A stretch of 5,098 nucleotides of DNA, taken from the IMG/VR virus record IMGVR_UViG_3300029074_000008, positions 1 to 5,098 of that record. The stretch is one strand, 5' to 3'. Origin of the DNA: a virus (Duplodnaviria > Heunggongvirae > Uroviricota > Caudoviricetes). The position numbers were made by a program, and so were the translations under genes. The notes below the pieces were generated by a model, which saw nothing but the letters and a program-made list of their open reading frames with translations, made no database searches and was not told where the DNA came from. This document shows, piece after piece, positions 1 to 5,049 of the stretch (position 1 is its first letter; each line of letters starts with the position of its first letter).

Positions 1-153
1 CGTCACGGCTATGAATTACTGATTCACCCGCACGACCCTGCGACTATCAACTATGATCGCTCGCGCTACGCATTGTTACCTGAAACAGAGAAGGCAAAGA
101 TCGAAAGTTACATTGAATTTGTCATCAACCAGAACGAAAAAAGCAAACAATAA
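1..153 (+). CDS. 3' end of an upstream CDS (C-terminal 50 codons; 5' end lies outside the window); product unknown
   Basis: Frame 1 is the only open + frame from position 1 and ends at TAA 151-153; frames 2 and 3 hit stops within the first 25 nt. It is followed 20 nt later by a canonical intrinsic terminator. Translation ...RHGYELLIHPHDPATINYDRSRYALLPETEKAKIESYIEFVINQNEKSKQ*; I do not recognise the family. Confidence 0.6.
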   Translation, partial: RHGYELLIHPHDPATINYDRSRYALLPETEKAKIESYIEFVINQNEKSKQ

Positions 154-209: not shown

Positions 210-226
210 ATTACCTTATGGGTAAT
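210..226. promoter_or_regulatory. Operator-like palindrome, copy 1 (ATTACC-N5-GGTAAT), just upstream of the -35
   Basis: ATTACC (210-215), spacer TTATG, GGTAAT (221-226): perfect 6-bp inverted arms. The same half-sites recur at 272-288. It could alternatively act as a weak AT-rich hairpin before the T-run 226-232. Confidence 0.5.
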
Positions 227-244
227 TTTTTTAACTCATATCTA

Positions 245-273
245 TTGACATCAAACCAGATACGCATAATTAT
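245..273 (+). promoter_or_regulatory. Sigma70-type promoter (pL-like) driving the downstream + strand operon
   Basis: Perfect -35 consensus TTGACA at 245-250; 17-bp spacer; -10 candidate AATTAT at 268-273 (4/6 match, A2 and T6 present). An alternative -10, CATAAT at 265-270, has only a 14-bp spacer. It lies immediately after a terminator and before the first SD/ATG of the gene string. Confidence 0.55.
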
Positions 274-288
274 TACCTCAACGGTAAC
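272..288. promoter_or_regulatory. Operator-like palindrome, copy 2 (ATTACC-N5-GGTAAC), overlapping the -10/+1 region
   Basis: ATTACC (272-277), spacer TCAAC, GGTAAC (283-288). Same half-sites as copy 1; centres about 62 bp apart, flanking the -35. Confidence 0.5.
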
Positions 289-306
289 AGACCGAGGTAA
301 CAAGTT

Positions 307-456
307 ATGCAGTGGAAAATCATCAACGGTTGGTACTGCGTTACTGCATGCGGATTCATGAGCTGGAAGTTCCGCACCTTACAGGAAGGCATTAAGTGGG
401 CTTTCGTCAGCAAAGAAGCTCGCGATGTAGCCAACGATAACGAGATATGGGAGTAG
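307..456 (+). CDS. Small ORF (49 aa), first ORF after the promoter; hypothetical protein
   Basis: ATG 307 preceded by GAGGT (294-298) at 8-9 nt spacing; stop TAG 454-456. Translation MQWKIINGWYCVTACGFMSWKFRTLQEGIKWAFVSKEARDVANDNEIWE (Trp-rich, 2 Cys). Not in the ORF track (below the length cutoff). The track's antisense ORF 273..464 overlaps it; promoter and SD context favour the + ORF. Confidence 0.4.
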   Translation: MQWKIINGWYCVTACGFMSWKFRTLQEGIKWAFVSKEARDVANDNEIWE

Positions 457-464
457 GTTAGCAA

Positions 465-1499
465 ATGAGTGAATTATCAATCATCGAAATCACACCAGAC
501 ATGGCACCAAGAATTTACGTTGAAAAAGGGCTGGAAAAGTTTCTCGAGCAGATCCGTGAAGGTGTTAATGAAGTGCCTGACATTAGCACAGACAAAGGCA
601 GAAAGCGCATTGCATCTCTGGCTGCGAAGGTTTCAAGAAGTAAAACAGCGGTAGAAAAACCAGGACGTGATTATCTGAAACGCCTGAAAGAACAGCCGAA
701 AGTAGTTGAAGCAGAGTTACGACGCTTCGTAACCGAATGCGATCGGCTTCGTGATGAAGTACGCCGCCCACTCACCGAGTGGGAAAATGCTGAGAAATTA
801 CGCACTGAAGCACTGCAACAACGCCTGACAAATTTGCGAGCACTAGCTGACGTGATCGATCTCTCCGGAAACTACTTGCCATCATCTGATATTCAGGAAC
901 GAATTCAAGAGGCTAAATCAGTAGCACTTGATGAAAGTTGGCAGGAGTACGCAGCAGAAGCTGGAGTAGCCAAGGATTCAACCATCCAGAAACTGGAAGA
1001 ATCACTCGCAGTAGCTCAAAAACGCGAGCGTGAAGCCGCTGAGCTGGAGCGACTTCGCAAAGAAGCGGAGGAAAAAGCGCGCATTGAGCGAGAAGAGAAT
1101 ATCCGCCGGGAAGCTGCTGAACAGGCCAGGCTCGAAGCTGAACAAAAAGCGAAAGCTGAAATTGAGGCTGCGGCACGCCTGGCGGCGGAAGAAAAAGCAC
1201 GTGCAGAAGTAGCAGAACGTCAGCGAATTGAAGCAGAGCAGCGTGCACGACGCGAAAAAGAAGAAGCCGTTGCCGAGGAACGCCGACGCCAAGAGGCGGC
1301 AGAAAAAGCCCGCCTTGACGAACAGAAGCGTATCGCCGACGAAGAAGCGCGCCGAGCTGCAGATAAAGAGCATCGCCGTACCGTTAACCGCAGAGTAATC
1401 GCAGATCTGATAGCCCAAGGCATTCACGAAGAATTCGCGCAGAAAGCAATGTTGGCTATCGCTGGCGGCAAAGTGCAGGACGCGTATATCAAATATTGA
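465..1499 (+). CDS. Phage hypothetical protein (344 aa) with globular N- and C-terminal regions flanking a long ER/K-rich charged alpha-helical/coiled-coil segment
   Basis: Long ORF from the track; ATG 465 with AGGT 455-458 upstream. Residues about 185-300 are almost entirely E/A/R/K/Q (e.g. AEEKARIEREENIRREAAEQARLEAEQKAKAEIEAAARLAAEEKARAE...). Family not recognised with certainty. Confidence 0.85.
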   Translation: MSELSIIEITPDMAPRIYVEKGLEKFLEQIREGVNEVPDISTDKGRKRIASLAAKVSRSKTAVEKPGRDYLKRLKEQPKVVEAELRRFVTECDRLRDEVRRPLTEWENAEKLRTEALQQRLTNLRALADVIDLSGNYLPSSDIQERIQEAKSVALDESWQEYAAEAGVAKDSTIQKLEESLAVAQKREREAAELERLRKEAEEKARIEREENIRREAAEQARLEAEQKAKAEIEAAARLAAEEKARAEVAERQRIEAEQRARREKEEAVAEERRRQEAAEKARLDEQKRIADEEARRAADKEHRRTVNRRVIADLIAQGIHEEFAQKAMLAIAGGKVQDAYIKY

Positions 1500-1806: not shown

Positions 1807-2624
1807 AACCGGGAATTTATTTCGACATCAGCAACGAAGACTACCACGCCGGTGACGGCGTGAGTAAGTCGCAACTGGACATGGTTGCCAAGAATCCGGC
1901 GCTTCTTAAATGGGTTCAGGCAGCACCAGAAGACGAAGAGAAAAAGTCTGCACTGGATATGGGAACCGCATTGCACTGTCTGCTTCTGGAGCCTGGAGAG
2001 TTCGACAAACGCTTCATTGTTTCACAGAAATTCGATCGTCGGACGAAACAAGGTAAAGCTGACGAAGAGGAATTTCTTCGTGATGTGGCGGATATGGGGA
2101 TTACGGTACTTGATGCCGAGCAGTGGCGGAAACTGGAGCTGATGCGTGATAGCGCAATGGCTCACCCGGCGGCACGCTGGATGCTGGAAGCACCTGGTTA
2201 CTGCGAAGCATCAATGTACTGGAACGATGAAGAGACGGGGGAGTTGTGCCGAATTCGTCCAGACAAATGGCTGAACGAGCACAACGTGATCGTCGACGTG
2301 AAAAAGGTTGCAGATATGGACCGTTTTGCACGCCACATCGAGGAATTCCGCTACCACGTGCAGGACGCAATGTACCGCGAAGGCGCAATGAGGGTTACTG
2401 GTCAGCCGCATGGTTTTTTCTTTCTTGCCGTGAGCGAAAGCATTGATTGTGGTCGGTATCCGGTACGCGTGTTCGAGCTGGATGCGCAGGATGTCGATGC
2501 CGGGCACGCTCTGTTCCGCCGGGATCTGAATACCTATCACGAATGCCGCATCAATGATGAATGGGGCGGTGTGGAAATCATTAAACGCCCTGAGTGGGCA
2601 CGCAAACAGGATATGTACATATGA
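1803..2624 (+). CDS. RecE-type (exonuclease VIII C-terminal-like) PD-(D/E)XK exonuclease, stand-alone nuclease domain (273 aa)
   Basis: ORF with SD GAGGGA (1791-1796) before ATG 1803. N-terminus MKPGIYFDISNEDYHAGDGVSKSQL resembles the start of the RecE-like PDDEXK nuclease domain as I remember it. PD...(D/E)XK-like motif in IRPDKWLNEHNVIVDVKKV (about 2255-2310). It sits immediately upstream of an annealing-protein gene. Confidence 0.75.
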   Translation: MKPGIYFDISNEDYHAGDGVSKSQLDMVAKNPALLKWVQAAPEDEEKKSALDMGTALHCLLLEPGEFDKRFIVSQKFDRRTKQGKADEEEFLRDVADMGITVLDAEQWRKLELMRDSAMAHPAARWMLEAPGYCEASMYWNDEETGELCRIRPDKWLNEHNVIVDVKKVADMDRFARHIEEFRYHVQDAMYREGAMRVTGQPHGFFFLAVSESIDCGRYPVRVFELDAQDVDAGHALFRRDLNTYHECRINDEWGGVEIIKRPEWARKQDMYI

Positions 2625-3562
2625 GCAACGACATCGCAAACATCAACGCACCAGTAGACACAGCAATCGCTGGAACTGCTGCAACTATTTTCAGCCCAGA
2701 CGGCTTGAACCAACTGATGAAATTCGCCGAGGTAATGGCGCAAAGCCGCGTAACGGTACCGGCGCACCTCGCCGGGAAACCAGCTGATTGCATGGCCGTG
2801 GCAATGCAGGCTGCGCAGTGGGGAATGAACCCGTTTGCCGTGGCTCAGAAAACCCATGTTGTGAACGGCACGCTAGGTTATGAAGCCCAATTAGTAAACG
2901 CAGTTATCTCAACGATGTCGCCAACAAAAGATCGCATCAACTACGAGTGGTTTGGGCCGTGGGAACGCGTGATCGGTAAGTTTGTTGAGAAAACATCCAA
3001 AAACGGCAATCCATATATCGCACCAGGCTGGACTCTAAAAGACGAAGAAGGCTGCGGTGTTCGCGTATGGGCAACCATGAAGGGCGAGGATCAACCTCGA
3101 GTGCTTGAGTTAATGCTGTCTCAAGCACAGGTAAGAAACTCCACACTTTGGGCCAGTGATCCGAAACAACAACTCGCATACCTTGCGACAAAACGCTGGT
3201 CTCGCCTGCACTGTCCTGACGTAATCATGGGCGTCTACACCCCAGACGAATTACAGGAAACGGCACCGCGCGTTGAGCGAGACATTACTCCGCAAACGAC
3301 AACTGCTGCGGGAATGAACAGTCTGATCAACGCTAAAACAGTGAAAAAGCCTGATGAGCAAACGCGTAAAGCGGATAGCCGTGATCCAGAAGAAATGCTG
3401 ATGGCCTTTACCAGCGCAGCGATGAATTACAGCACTGTCTCCGAACTGGATAAGGCTTACAAATACATTGCACAAAAACTTTCAGATGATGACGAACTGC
3501 TGGCAAAAGCCACCGACGTTTACAGCGTTCGTCGGGAAGAATTAAACGAAACATCTATGTAA
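2621..3562 (+). CDS. RecT/Red-beta-family single-strand annealing protein (313 aa)
   Basis: ATG 2621 overlaps the exonuclease stop (ATGA at 2621-2624); AGGA 2608-2611 upstream. Motif AMQAAQWGMNPFAVAQ (about 2816-2836) parallels lambda Bet ANQYGLNPWTKEIYAF (recalled from memory). Classic exonuclease-then-annealase gene order. The track's GTG 2594 start lacks an SD. Confidence 0.75.
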   Translation: MSNDIANINAPVDTAIAGTAATIFSPDGLNQLMKFAEVMAQSRVTVPAHLAGKPADCMAVAMQAAQWGMNPFAVAQKTHVVNGTLGYEAQLVNAVISTMSPTKDRINYEWFGPWERVIGKFVEKTSKNGNPYIAPGWTLKDEEGCGVRVWATMKGEDQPRVLELMLSQAQVRNSTLWASDPKQQLAYLATKRWSRLHCPDVIMGVYTPDELQETAPRVERDITPQTTTAAGMNSLINAKTVKKPDEQTRKADSRDPEEMLMAFTSAAMNYSTVSELDKAYKYIAQKLSDDDELLAKATDVYSVRREELNETSM

Positions 3563-4269: not shown

Positions 4270-4912
4270 GAAATACACACTAATCTATGCAGATCCACCC
4301 TGGGTATACCGGGACAAAGCCGCAGATGGTAATCGCGGTGCCAGTTTTAAATATCCGGTTATGAGTGTGATGGATATCTGCCGCCTTCCTGTGTGGGATT
4401 TGGCCGATGAAAACTGTCTGTTGGCCATGTGGTGGGTGCCAACACAACCACTCGAAGCGCTAAAAGTTGTTGAAGCCTGGGGATTCCGTCTGATGACCAT
4501 GAAGGGCTTCACGTGGATAAAATGTGGTAGTCGACAACCAGATAAACTGGTTATGGGTATGGGGCACATGACTCGCGCCAATAGTGAAGATTGCCTGTTT
4601 GCGGTAAAGGGAAAGCTACCTACGCGCATTAATGCAGGGATCGTTCAGTCATTTACCGCACCGCGGCTTGAGCATTCAAGAAAACCAGATATCGTTCGTG
4701 AAAAACTTGTGCAATTGTTAGGCGATGTTTCTCGCATTGAACTGTTCGCCCGCCAGACGTCTCATGGCTTCGATGTTTGGGGTAATCAGTGCGAAGACCC
4801 GGCAGTGCAACTACACCCTGGATACGCGTTGGATATTGGCGGATTAACAAATGCATTCAGCAATGCTCCGGTGTCACCAATAGACAACCAGGGGCGGGAG
4901 CGTGCAGCATGA
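4262..4912 (+). CDS. MT-A70-family N6-adenine DNA methyltransferase (216 aa), apparently orphan (no cognate nuclease in window)
   Basis: Motif IYADPPW (DPPW, catalytic motif IV; GAT at 4292-4294) near the N-terminus, and EHSRKPD near the C-terminal third. The ATG 4262 start is preferred over the track's GTG 4250. The stop TGA 4910-4912 overlaps the next ATG 4909. Confidence 0.85.
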
Positions 4913-5049
4913 ACCTATATCAACGCATCAATGGCGCTGACTGGTGCAATATCTTCGTCGTCGGCGATCTGCATGGGTGCTACACGCTGCTGATGAACGA
5001 ACTCGACAAAGTTTCATTCGACCCACTCAATTATTTACGACAAACATAA
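4909..5049 (+). pseudogene. Truncated lambda-type Ser/Thr protein phosphatase (metallophosphoesterase): only the N-terminal 46 codons
   Basis: [39 protein letters not shown] closely parallels the lambda PPase N-terminus (...[25 protein letters not shown]..., recalled) and includes the GDxHG metal-binding motif. Similarity stops after FDP (about 5025) and the frame ends at TAA 5047-5049. No continuation with the expected second motif (roughly ISVGDL-DRG) exists in any + frame of the remaining about 70 nt. Confidence 0.7.

What the first reader, a model, noticed from the sequence alone, without database searches (positions are those of the whole stretch)
1..153. Unknown gene ending just before the terminator and operators, at the position lambdoid phages use for exclusion/defence cargo
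Established knowledge: in lambda the genes between cI and pL (rexA/rexB, and sieB-type genes in relatives) are transcribed toward pL and stop at a terminator just before OL/pL. This slot is a recurrent site for superinfection-exclusion and anti-phage defence cargo. Seen here: a gene ends at 153, followed by a terminator and then the operator-flanked promoter, which matches that layout. Its C-terminal 50 residues match nothing I recognise. Inference: it may belong to a lysogen-expressed defence or exclusion gene, but only the tail is visible.
Basis: inference. Interest (0 to 1): 0.45.

Follow-up and report, generated by a model that had tools for sequence, protein, structure and literature searches.

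The report
Tail of the prophage master repressor
The 50-codon gene end at the left edge of the window is the C-terminus of the phage's own lysogeny repressor, a well-studied type with a solved structure, and not an unknown defence gene, so the finding is ordinary.

Summary
The described anatomy is real. An ORF runs off the left edge and stops at TAA 151-153. An intrinsic terminator follows (174-199), then a sigma-70 promoter (-35 at 245-250, -10 at 268-273) bracketed by two perfect TTACC-N5-GGTAA palindromes (211-225, 273-287).

The window is the early-left region of an epsilon15/phiV10-like (Uetakevirus) E. coli phage. The ORF tail is 49/50 identical to the C-terminus of phiV10 gp40. That 194-aa protein is 100% identical to phage ZX5 ORF21, whose overexpression abolished free phage and cut lysis-gene mRNA by more than 99.9%.

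The tail alone matches the solved Salmonella phage SPC32H repressor (PDB 5D4Z, E=9e-8; 5D50, E=3e-7). The full protein is 42% identical to it over its whole length. The 50 residues correspond to that repressor's C-terminal domain, which forms tetramers and binds the anti-repressor Ant. phiV10 also has an Ant homologue behind a LexA box.

No separate gene lies between the repressor and the terminator in about 78 of 80 close relatives or in 5 of the 6 more distant genome loci. The "defence cargo" idea is therefore not supported. This is already known and of low interest.

The parts
1..153 (+). 3' end of the rep gene (prophage master repressor): codons for residues 145-194 plus the TAA stop. It corresponds to the C-terminal tetramerisation and Ant-binding domain (CAD) of SPC32H Rep.
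   Evidence: Translation. 49/50 identical to phiV10 gp40. Tail alone versus PDB 5D4Z E=9e-8 and 5D50 E=3e-7. Family conservation. Domain roles from PMC9986798.
109..120 (+). Codons Y181-I-E-F184. These are equivalent to SPC32H Rep F187 and F190, the aromatic residues reported to form the tetramer interface.
   Evidence: Alignment. F184 is invariant and position 181 is Y or F in the family. Interface residues are named in PMC9986798.
174..199 (+). Intrinsic terminator ending rep transcription: an 8-bp stem with 6 G-C pairs, a 4-nt loop and a T run.
   Evidence: Annotated as a terminator in phiV10. Present at +22/+23 from the stop in about 78 of 80 relatives and in 5 of 6 distant loci.
211..225 (+). 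Distal left operator, TTACCTTATGGGTAA, upstream of the -35 hexamer.
   Evidence: 0 in 200 shuffles. Same position (+58 from the stop) in relatives.
245..273 (+). Early-left promoter (PL-like): -35 TTGACA at 245-250, -10 AATTAT at 268-273.
   Evidence: Conserved in relatives at +92 from the stop.
273..287 (+). Proximal left operator, TTACCTCAACGGTAA. It abuts the -10 hexamer and covers the expected transcription start.
   Evidence: Same position (+120) in relatives.
290..301 (+). Extra GGTAAC half-site next to the proximal operator. It may be the remnant of the third operator that SPC32H has in full. Its significance is unproven.
   Evidence: Read from the sequence. SPC32H has a third complete site at +197.
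307..456 (+). First early-left gene (49 aa, MQWKIINGWYCVT...), the first target of repression at PL.
   Evidence: phrog_898 at 5e-38. Conserved as the first gene after PL in 7 of the 8 loci examined; L088 has an extra small ORF before it.

Best explanation
Window 1-153 encodes the last 50 residues of Rep, the master lysogeny repressor of an epsilon15/phiV10-like (Uetakevirus) temperate phage of E. coli.

Rep is about 194 aa and, by homology with SPC32H Rep, has three parts:
- an N-terminal helix-turn-helix DNA-binding domain;
- a middle HTH_3-like dimerisation domain;
- a short C-terminal strand-helix-helix domain (CAD).

The visible tail corresponds to the CAD. By homology, it joins two Rep dimers into the tetramer that binds the palindromic operators, and it is the surface the small anti-repressor Ant grips to take Rep off the DNA.

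In the lysogen, rep is transcribed from the divergent immunity promoter and stops at the hairpin at 174-199. Rep tetramers then occupy the two TTACC-N5-GGTAA operators that bracket the early-left promoter at 245-273, as well as matching sites at the right operator and elsewhere in the genome. This silences the recombination and early genes.

Rep has no S24 autocleavage domain. Induction is therefore expected to run as: DNA damage, LexA leaves the ant promoter, Ant is made, the Rep tetramer is disassembled.

Shown here: gene identity, homology, layout and operator statistics. Taken from the literature: repressor activity (ZX5), and tetramerisation and Ant binding by the CAD (SPC32H). Inferred: that this particular Rep binds these particular operators, that it responds to Ant, and that it is expressed in the lysogen.
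For: - Identity of the gene: the tail is 49/50 identical to phiV10 gp40. gp40 is 100% identical to ZX5 ORF21.
- Experimental repressor activity: overexpressing ZX5 ORF21 gave zero free phage and a 99.97-99.99% drop in endolysin and holin mRNA (PMC9782041).
- Match to solved structures: the tail alone hits SPC32H Repressor chains 5D4Z/5D50 at E=9e-8/3e-7. The family profile hits 5D50_A full length at E=9e-65. BLASTP gives 42% identity over 194 aa. The AF2 model's top Foldseek hits are 5D50 and 5D4Z.
- Domain roles: DBD, MDD and CAD, with the F187/F190 tetramer interface, are described in PMC9986798. The equivalents Y181 and F184 are conserved.
- Domain content: Pfam finds only HTH domains and no S24 peptidase.
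- Genomic context: a divergent small ORF in the cro position followed by O/P-type replication genes upstream, and a terminator plus operator-flanked promoter downstream.
- Operators: 2 exact sites in the window against 0 in 200 shuffles; 9 and 5 sites with at most 1 mismatch in two largely separate parts of phiV10 (about 1.6 kb overlap, no site counted twice), against about 0.3 expected each. The same half-sites sit at the same offsets in SPC32H and in five of the six distant loci.
- Induction partner: phiV10 gp24 matches SPC32H Ant at E=3.8e-46, with the LexA-box-like palindrome ACTGTATAAATACACAGT just upstream.
Against: - Only 50 of about 194 codons are visible. The window itself cannot show that this copy of rep is intact.
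- The tail is only 46% identical (21/46) to SPC32H Rep over the aligned stretch, so tetramerisation and Ant binding are inferred by homology.
- The AF2 monomer model is weak over residues 150-170 (pLDDT about 60). It predicts a short helix where the crystal structure is described as having beta strands.
- The two primary SPC32H papers (PNAS 2016, J Virol 2013) could not be read. Their content is taken from citing papers and from my own memory.
- No direct binding data link this Rep to the TTACC-N5-GGTAA sites.
Confidence: 0.93

Rival explanations
1. The ORF is the end of a lysogen-expressed superinfection-exclusion or anti-phage defence gene carried as cargo between the repressor gene and OL/PL, like lambda rexAB or P22 sieB.
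For: - The position and orientation relative to the terminator, operators and promoter resemble the lambda cI-rex-tImm-OL layout.
- One distant relative (L091) does carry an extra gene in this slot, so the slot can hold cargo.
Against: - In every relative with the upstream sequence available, the ORF ending here is the repressor itself, with no second gene before the terminator.
- The tail matches a solved repressor.
- PADLOC gives nothing for the tail and only a marginal HTH 'control protein' hit for the full protein.
- The L091 insert is a DNA polymerase III theta (HolE/Hot-like) homologue, not a recognised defence gene.
Confidence: 0.02
2. The protein is a HigA/VapI-type antitoxin of a toxin-antitoxin pair, as one database record (phage BP9) annotates it.
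For: - Phage BP9 carries the annotation 'plasmid maintenance system antidote protein VapI'.
- There are weak profile hits to HigA antitoxin structures (E=0.03-0.5) and a sub-threshold YdaS_toxin/HTH hit.
Against: - These hits are generic HTH similarity and are about 60 orders of magnitude weaker than the Rep hit.
- No toxin gene is adjacent. The neighbours are a divergent small ORF in the cro position and a terminator.
- An identical protein represses lytic genes experimentally.
Confidence: 0.02
3. The copy in this window is a decayed remnant: a truncated or inactivated rep in a defective prophage, so the tail is no longer functional.
For: - The right end of the window departs from phiV10. A 46-codon ORF that I recognise from memory as the start of a Ser/Thr phosphatase stops early at 5049, which hints at some mosaicism or decay in this element.
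- The upstream 144 codons of rep are not visible.
Against: - The 153 nt show only synonymous changes plus one conservative N-to-S change relative to functional phages.
- The terminator, both operators and the promoter are intact.
- All early genes in the window are full-length ORFs with the expected domains.
Confidence: 0.05

Closest known systems
Rep of Salmonella phage SPC32H (PDB 5D50, 5D4Z; Kim et al., PNAS 2016, seen only through citing papers)
   Same: - Homologous over the full length: 42% identity, E=2e-53.
- Same size and the same three-domain plan.
- Aromatic tetramer-interface positions retained.
- Same genomic position.
- Same TTACC-N5-GGTAA operator half-sites at the same offsets from the stop codon.
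- The nearest full-length relative (phiV10) also has an Ant homologue.
   Different: - 58% of residues differ; the tail is 21/46 identical.
- This lineage has two full left operators plus a half-site, whereas SPC32H has three full sites.
- SPC32H lacks the clean GC hairpin with T-run terminator seen here.
phiV10 gp40 / vB_EcoP_ZX5 ORF21 / phiv142-3 Orf43 repressor (E. coli Uetakevirus)
   Same: Essentially the same protein, 49/50 identical in the visible part. The downstream terminator, operator and promoter block is nearly identical, with 97% mean column identity. ZX5 ORF21 was shown to block lytic development.
   Different: One substitution, N192S, three residues from the C-terminus. The early-left operon of this window carries a 344-aa coiled-coil gene (465-1499) that phiV10 and ZX5 lack but phiv142-3 and JML285 have.
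Lambda cI-rexA-rexB-tImm-OL/PL region
   Same: A repressor operon transcribed towards PL ends at a terminator just before the operators that flank PL. The cro-position and replication genes are divergent on the other side.
   Different: - There are no rex-like genes. The repressor gene itself abuts the terminator.
- Rep has no S24 autocleavage domain. By homology it is inactivated by an anti-repressor rather than by RecA-stimulated cleavage.
- By homology it binds operators as a tetramer built through a C-terminal p53-like domain.
Rco of Bacillus plasmid pLS20 and the p53 tetramerisation domain (TetDloop fold)
   Same: PMC9986798 reports that the C-terminal domain of SPC32H Rep has the same strand-plus-helix tetramerisation fold. 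It also reports that Rep/Ant resembles the Rco/Rap repressor/anti-repressor pair.
   Different: No detectable sequence similarity. Rep has an extra short helix in the linker and an extra middle dimerisation domain. I did not test the fold similarity here.

Membership tests
SPC32H-type Rep (Uetakevirus master repressor) | Sequence homology of the visible residues to the Rep C-terminal domain | tested here: met
   The 50-aa tail versus PDB gives 5D4Z E=9e-8 and 5D50 E=3e-7, aligned over tail residues 3-46. 21/46 identical.
SPC32H-type Rep (Uetakevirus master repressor) | Full-length homology and three-domain architecture (N-terminal HTH DBD, middle HTH_3-like dimerisation domain, C-terminal CAD), with no S24 peptidase | tested here: met
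   Tested on the 49/50-identical full-length relatives, not on the window itself, where upstream DNA is absent.; domain names from PMC9986798.
SPC32H-type Rep (Uetakevirus master repressor) | Aromatic residues at the tetramer interface (F187, F190 in SPC32H) | tested here: met
   Y181 and F184 align with F187 and F190. F184 is invariant and 181 is Y or F in 26 family members. The interface is described in PMC9986798.
SPC32H-type Rep (Uetakevirus master repressor) | Gene lies in the immunity region, divergent from a small ORF in the cro position, and is followed by palindromic operators flanking the early-left promoter | tested here: met
   Window. Relatives.
SPC32H-type Rep (Uetakevirus master repressor) | Cognate small anti-repressor Ant under LexA control elsewhere in the genome | not testable with these tools
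   The window does not reach that region. In phiV10, gp24 matches 5D50 Ant at E=3.8e-46, with the LexA-box-like ACTGTATAAATACACAGT upstream.
SPC32H-type Rep (Uetakevirus master repressor) | Represses lytic genes, binds operators as a tetramer, and is released by Ant | not testable with these tools
   Repression was shown for the identical ZX5 ORF21 by overexpression (PMC9782041). Tetramer formation and the Ant mechanism are known only for SPC32H Rep (PMC9638917; PMC9986798).
Lambda rex / P22 sieB-type exclusion cargo in the repressor-to-PL slot | A separate gene downstream of the repressor gene, between it and the terminator/OL | tested here: not met
   The ORF ending at 153 is the repressor. 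The rep stop is followed at +23 by the terminator in about 78 of 80 close relatives and in 5 of 6 distant loci.
Lambda rex / P22 sieB-type exclusion cargo in the repressor-to-PL slot | Similarity to known defence or exclusion proteins | tested here: not met
   PADLOC: nothing for the tail, and only E=0.0076 to an HTH 'control protein' for the full protein. Pfam finds HTH domains only.
HigA/VapI antitoxin | Adjacent, co-transcribed toxin gene | tested here: not met
   No such neighbour in phiV10, phiv142-3, JML285, SPC32H or ZX5. HigA similarity is only E=0.03-0.5.
Lambda cI / LexA-type autocleaving repressor | C-terminal S24 peptidase domain with an Ala-Gly cleavage site | tested here: not met
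   No Peptidase_S24 hit in Pfam. The C-terminus is instead the 50-residue CAD.

The most novel reading that the evidence does not exclude
The tail (CAD) may set which anti-repressor can induce which prophage.

Three observations point that way:
- Ant is about 88% identical between SPC32H and phiV10 (72 of 82 aligned positions, my count).
- The Reps are only 42% identical.
- All Reps down to 51% identity keep the NLVNRW-type recognition helix and the same TTACC-N5-GGTAA half-sites.

Uetakevirus prophages of different 'immunity types' might therefore be cross-immune at the operator level and cross-inducible in trans by each other's Ant, as reported for Gifsy prophages in Salmonella. The divergent CAD would then be the only specificity filter.
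Probability: 0.2. Interest if true: 0.35.

Novelty: already known. Interest (0 to 1): 0.08.

Why it matters
This matters little beyond correct annotation. The result removes a false lead, a supposed unknown defence gene, and assigns the fragment to a repressor family with a crystal structure and a described anti-repressor mechanism.

It also gives the downstream elements a concrete regulator. The terminator, two operators and promoter at 174-287 are the left operator region controlled by this Rep, which is useful to anyone annotating or engineering phiV10-like prophages of pathogenic E. coli.

There is a small practical point. Pfam's strongest HTH hit in these proteins (residues 106-147) is the dimerisation domain, according to the structural literature. 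The DNA-reading head is the weakly scoring N-terminal HTH. The last 50 residues have no Pfam model, which is why a reader or an annotation pipeline sees 'nothing recognisable'.

Tried and rejected
- **Defence cargo:** rejected after the tail proved to be the repressor and PADLOC found nothing meaningful.
- **Bro-N anti-repressor:** I checked whether the Bro-N protein (phiV10 gp23), whose counterpart the ZX5 paper calls the anti-repressor, is the SPC32H Ant homologue. It has no PDB match. The small neighbouring gp24 is the homologue.
- **Primary SPC32H and epsilon15 papers:** not held in the library. Domain roles come from citing papers.
- **Rfam on the whole window:** no RNA family reached the gathering score, so no known sRNA or riboswitch hides in the rep-to-PL spacer.
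- **Pfam on small window ORFs:** the 49-aa, 344-aa and 101-aa ORFs gave no hits. PHROGs placed the first two in families of unknown function.
- **Genome-contig scan:** gave only 6 loci. That was enough to show the layout is conserved, but too few to estimate how often the slot holds cargo.
- **Coordinate error:** a first attempt on the L088 small ORF failed on wrong coordinates and was repeated.
- **AF2 model:** the monomer model of the tail has low confidence, so I did not use it to claim the p53-like fold.

Full report
**1. The observation**

Frame +1 of window 1-153 is open from the left edge and ends at TAA 151-153. It encodes RHGYELLIHPHDPATINYDRSRYALLPETEKAKIESYIEFVINQNEKSKQ. All other frames of 1-160 contain stops.

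Downstream elements are as follows:
- A terminator-like hairpin at 174-193 (8 pairs, 6 of them G-C), followed by a T run.
- A near-consensus sigma-70 promoter, TTGACA at 245-250 and AATTAT at 268-273 with a 17-nt spacer.
- Two exact copies of the palindrome TTACC-N5-GGTAA, at 211-225 and 273-287. None occurred in 200 dinucleotide-preserving shuffles of the window.

The described anatomy is real and is not a chance pattern.

**2. Where the window comes from**

Megablast places the whole window in the early-left region of epsilon15/phiV10-like podophages (genus Uetakevirus) of E. coli. Identities are 96-99% to phiv142-3, phiV10, YDC107_2 and others. It also matches prophages in 644 of 5,426 complete E. 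coli genomes.

In the best chromosomal match (strain JML285) the prophage is integrated next to guaA. The ZX5 paper reports the same attachment site.

The rest of the window encodes the expected early-left genes:
- a 49-aa protein (phrog_898);
- a 344-aa coiled-coil protein (phrog_1376);
- a PD-(D/E)XK exonuclease;
- RecT;
- an AlpA-like regulator;
- PerC;
- an MT-A70 methyltransferase.

**3. What the ORF is**

In phiV10, phiv142-3, JML285 and ZX5 the ORF that ends at the position equivalent to window 153 is a 585-nt gene of 194 aa. It is annotated as an HTH protein or putative repressor.

The window's 50 residues are 49/50 identical to its C-terminus. The 153 nt differ from three relatives at 4-8 positions, and all but one (N192S) are synonymous. 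This is a protein-coding sequence under purifying selection.

The gene starts next to a divergently transcribed small ORF in the cro position (76 aa in phiV10), which is followed by O/P-type replication genes. The gene runs without interruption to the stop codon. There is no second gene between it and the terminator.

phiV10 gp40 is 100% identical to ZX5 ORF21. Overexpressing ORF21 reduced free phage to zero and endolysin and holin transcripts by 99.97-99.99% (PMC9782041).

**4. Homology to a solved repressor**

- A profile of 26 family members hits PDB 5D50 chain A ('Repressor', the Rep-Ant complex of a Salmonella temperate phage) over its full length at E=9e-65. It hits 5D4Z (Rep 92-198) at E=2e-32.
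- The 50-residue tail alone hits the same two entries at E=3e-7 and 9e-8. This is a direct test using only window sequence.
- BLASTP of gp40 against SPC32H Rep gives 42% identity across 194 residues. Within the tail, 21 of 46 aligned residues are identical.
- An AlphaFold2 model (mean pLDDT 79) finds 5D50 and 5D4Z as its top Foldseek matches.
- Pfam detects HTH_3 at residues 106-147 and a weak Cro/YdaS-like HTH at 21-61, with no S24 peptidase.
- The family comprises 86 clusters, mostly of about 194 aa, and every source-named member is from Enterobacterales.

**5. What the tail does (by homology)**

Papers citing the SPC32H structure describe Rep in three parts: an N-terminal DNA-binding domain, a middle dimerisation domain (MDD) and a C-terminal domain (CAD). 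The CAD drives tetramer formation and binds the anti-repressor Ant. It has a p53-like strand-plus-helix tetramerisation fold, and F187 and F190 form the hydrophobic tetramer interface (PMC9986798).

Rep binds its palindromic sites as a tetramer, and tetrameric Ant breaks the tetramer into dimers (PMC9638917).

In the window's protein, F187 and F190 correspond to Y181 (nt 109-111) and F184 (nt 118-120). F184 is invariant and position 181 is Y or F in all 26 aligned relatives. Other tail residues are invariant too (R145, Y148, E149, Y162, L170). The visible fragment therefore corresponds to the oligomerisation and anti-repressor docking module of the repressor.

**6. The rest of the circuit**

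phiV10 gp24, annotated as hypothetical, matches the SPC32H anti-repressor chain at E=3.8e-46. I count 72 of 82 aligned positions as identical. It has the palindrome ACTGTATAAATACACAGT immediately upstream. I recognise this as a LexA box (CTGT-N8-ACAG) from general knowledge.

The Bro-N protein gp23, whose counterpart was tested as 'anti-repressor' in the ZX5 paper, has no match in the PDB.

Induction is therefore expected to follow the SPC32H route: SOS response, LexA release, Ant synthesis, Rep disassembly. This step is inferred and cannot be checked within the window.

**7. Operators**

The TTACC-N5-GGTAA motif (at most 1 mismatch) occurs 9 times in 15.9 kb around the phiV10 immunity region, against 0.33 expected. 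It occurs 5 times in the first 24 kb of the genome, a stretch that overlaps the first by about 1.6 kb with no site counted twice, against 0.35 expected.

Most sites lie between genes:
- two between rep and the divergent cro-position ORF, with a third, weaker site there;
- two at PL;
- others near ant, upstream of int, at the divergent lysis/oac promoter region, upstream of the DUF1064 gene, and near the start of the small terminase gene (the last two fall just inside that gene).

SPC32H and five of six distant genome loci (Rep 53-74% identical) carry the same half-sites at the same offsets from the rep stop, +58 and +120. The sixth, L091 (51%), has the same half-sites displaced downstream (+333 to +514) by an inserted gene. 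The N-terminal helix NLVNRW is almost invariant across the family, which fits a shared half-site.

That Rep binds these sites is inferred from this pattern and from the 'palindromic DNA sites' wording. I could not read the primary binding data.

**8.

The layout analogy with lambda (repressor operon, terminator, OL/PL) is correct. The gene in question is the cI equivalent, not a rex or sieB equivalent.

Among 80 IMG/VR relatives, all have the same tail. About 78 have the same spacing: stop, +23 terminator, +58 operator, +92 TTGACA, +120 operator, +154 ATG.

Among the six diverse genome loci, five have the same layout. One (L091, Rep 51% identical) has an 88-codon gene overlapping the rep stop codon (ATGA) and filling the slot. 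It is a DNA polymerase III theta-subunit homologue (PF06440, 1.3e-37). I recognise this type from phage P1 Hot, and it is not a known defence gene.

The slot can occasionally hold a moron, but it is empty here. PADLOC gave no meaningful defence match.

**9. Rivals**

- HigA/VapI antitoxin (a database label on phage BP9): only generic HTH similarity (E=0.03-0.5) and no toxin neighbour.
- Lambda-type autocleaving repressor: excluded by the absence of an S24 domain.
- Decayed copy: cannot be excluded without upstream sequence. It is unlikely given the purely synonymous drift and the intact regulatory elements.

**10. Verdict**

The finding is the C-terminal end of a known, structurally characterised prophage repressor, followed by its terminator and the left operator/promoter it controls. 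It is already known and of low interest.

The most novel reading not excluded concerns specificity. Ant is highly conserved, the operator half-sites are shared, and only the Rep middle and C-terminal domains diverge. These prophages might be cross-immune and cross-inducible, with the tail acting as the specificity filter. I give this probability about 0.2 and modest interest.

Noticed in passing
L001 (phiV10 22370-38239, reverse complement) sites at 3094, 3156, 5114, 5451, 5499, 6211, 6273, 11356, 13534; L005 (phiV10 1-24000) sites at 87, 105, 3252, 20497, 20877: The operator palindrome TTACC-N5-GGTAA is spread over the whole phage genome: 14 sites with at most 1 mismatch, against about 0.7 expected. 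Most sit between transcription units (ant, int, lysis/oac, DUF1064 gene); two lie just inside the start of the small terminase gene. This suggests Rep silences many promoters directly, not only PL and PR.
   Followed up: partly
L005 20543-20800 (- strand) and 20822-20841: phiV10 gp24, annotated 'hypothetical protein', is a close homologue of the SPC32H anti-repressor Ant (E=3.8e-46 to PDB 5D50 chain E). It has a LexA-box-like palindrome, ACTGTATAAATACACAGT, just upstream. The ZX5 paper instead tested a Bro-N protein as the anti-repressor. The phiV10 Bro-N protein gp23 has no PDB match.
   Followed up: yes
L091 4594-4860 (+ strand): In one distant relative (contig labelled Pseudomonas lundensis, Rep 51% identical), an 88-codon gene overlaps the rep stop codon and fills the rep-to-operator slot. 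It is a DNA polymerase III theta-subunit (HolE/Hot-like) homologue, PF06440 at 1.3e-37.
   Followed up: partly
L088 4669-4899 and operator at +349 from the rep stop: In Pseudescherichia vulneris, an extra small gene (phrog_20574, unknown function) sits between PL and the conserved first early gene. A third full operator follows it.
   Followed up: partly
window 465-1499 (+ strand): A 344-aa, highly charged coiled-coil protein (phrog_1376, unknown function, no Pfam hit) is present here, in phiv142-3, in the JML285 prophage and in distant loci L086, L090 and L091. It is absent from phiV10, ZX5 and SPC32H, so it is a variable early-left gene.
   Followed up: partly
window 4909-5049 (+ strand): After the MT-A70 methylase gene, the window departs from phiV10, which has a DUF1382 gene and then int. 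Here there is a 46-codon [27 protein letters not shown]..., which looks from memory like the start of a lambda-type Ser/Thr phosphatase but stops early. Pfam gave no hit on this short piece.
   Followed up: partly
window 2594-2624: The exonuclease ORF (1803-2624) and the RecT ORF overlap at their junction. In phiV10 the two are annotated as a single fused RecE-RecT protein of 1,761 nt, whereas here and in phiv142-3 they are separate genes.
   Followed up: no
Rep residues 106-147 in relatives (upstream of the window): Pfam's best HTH_3 hit in Rep corresponds to the domain the structural literature calls the dimerisation domain. The DNA-binding head is the weakly scoring N-terminal HTH, and the last 50 residues have no Pfam model. 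This explains the vague database annotations such as 'VapI antidote' and 'TreR-like'.
   Followed up: partly
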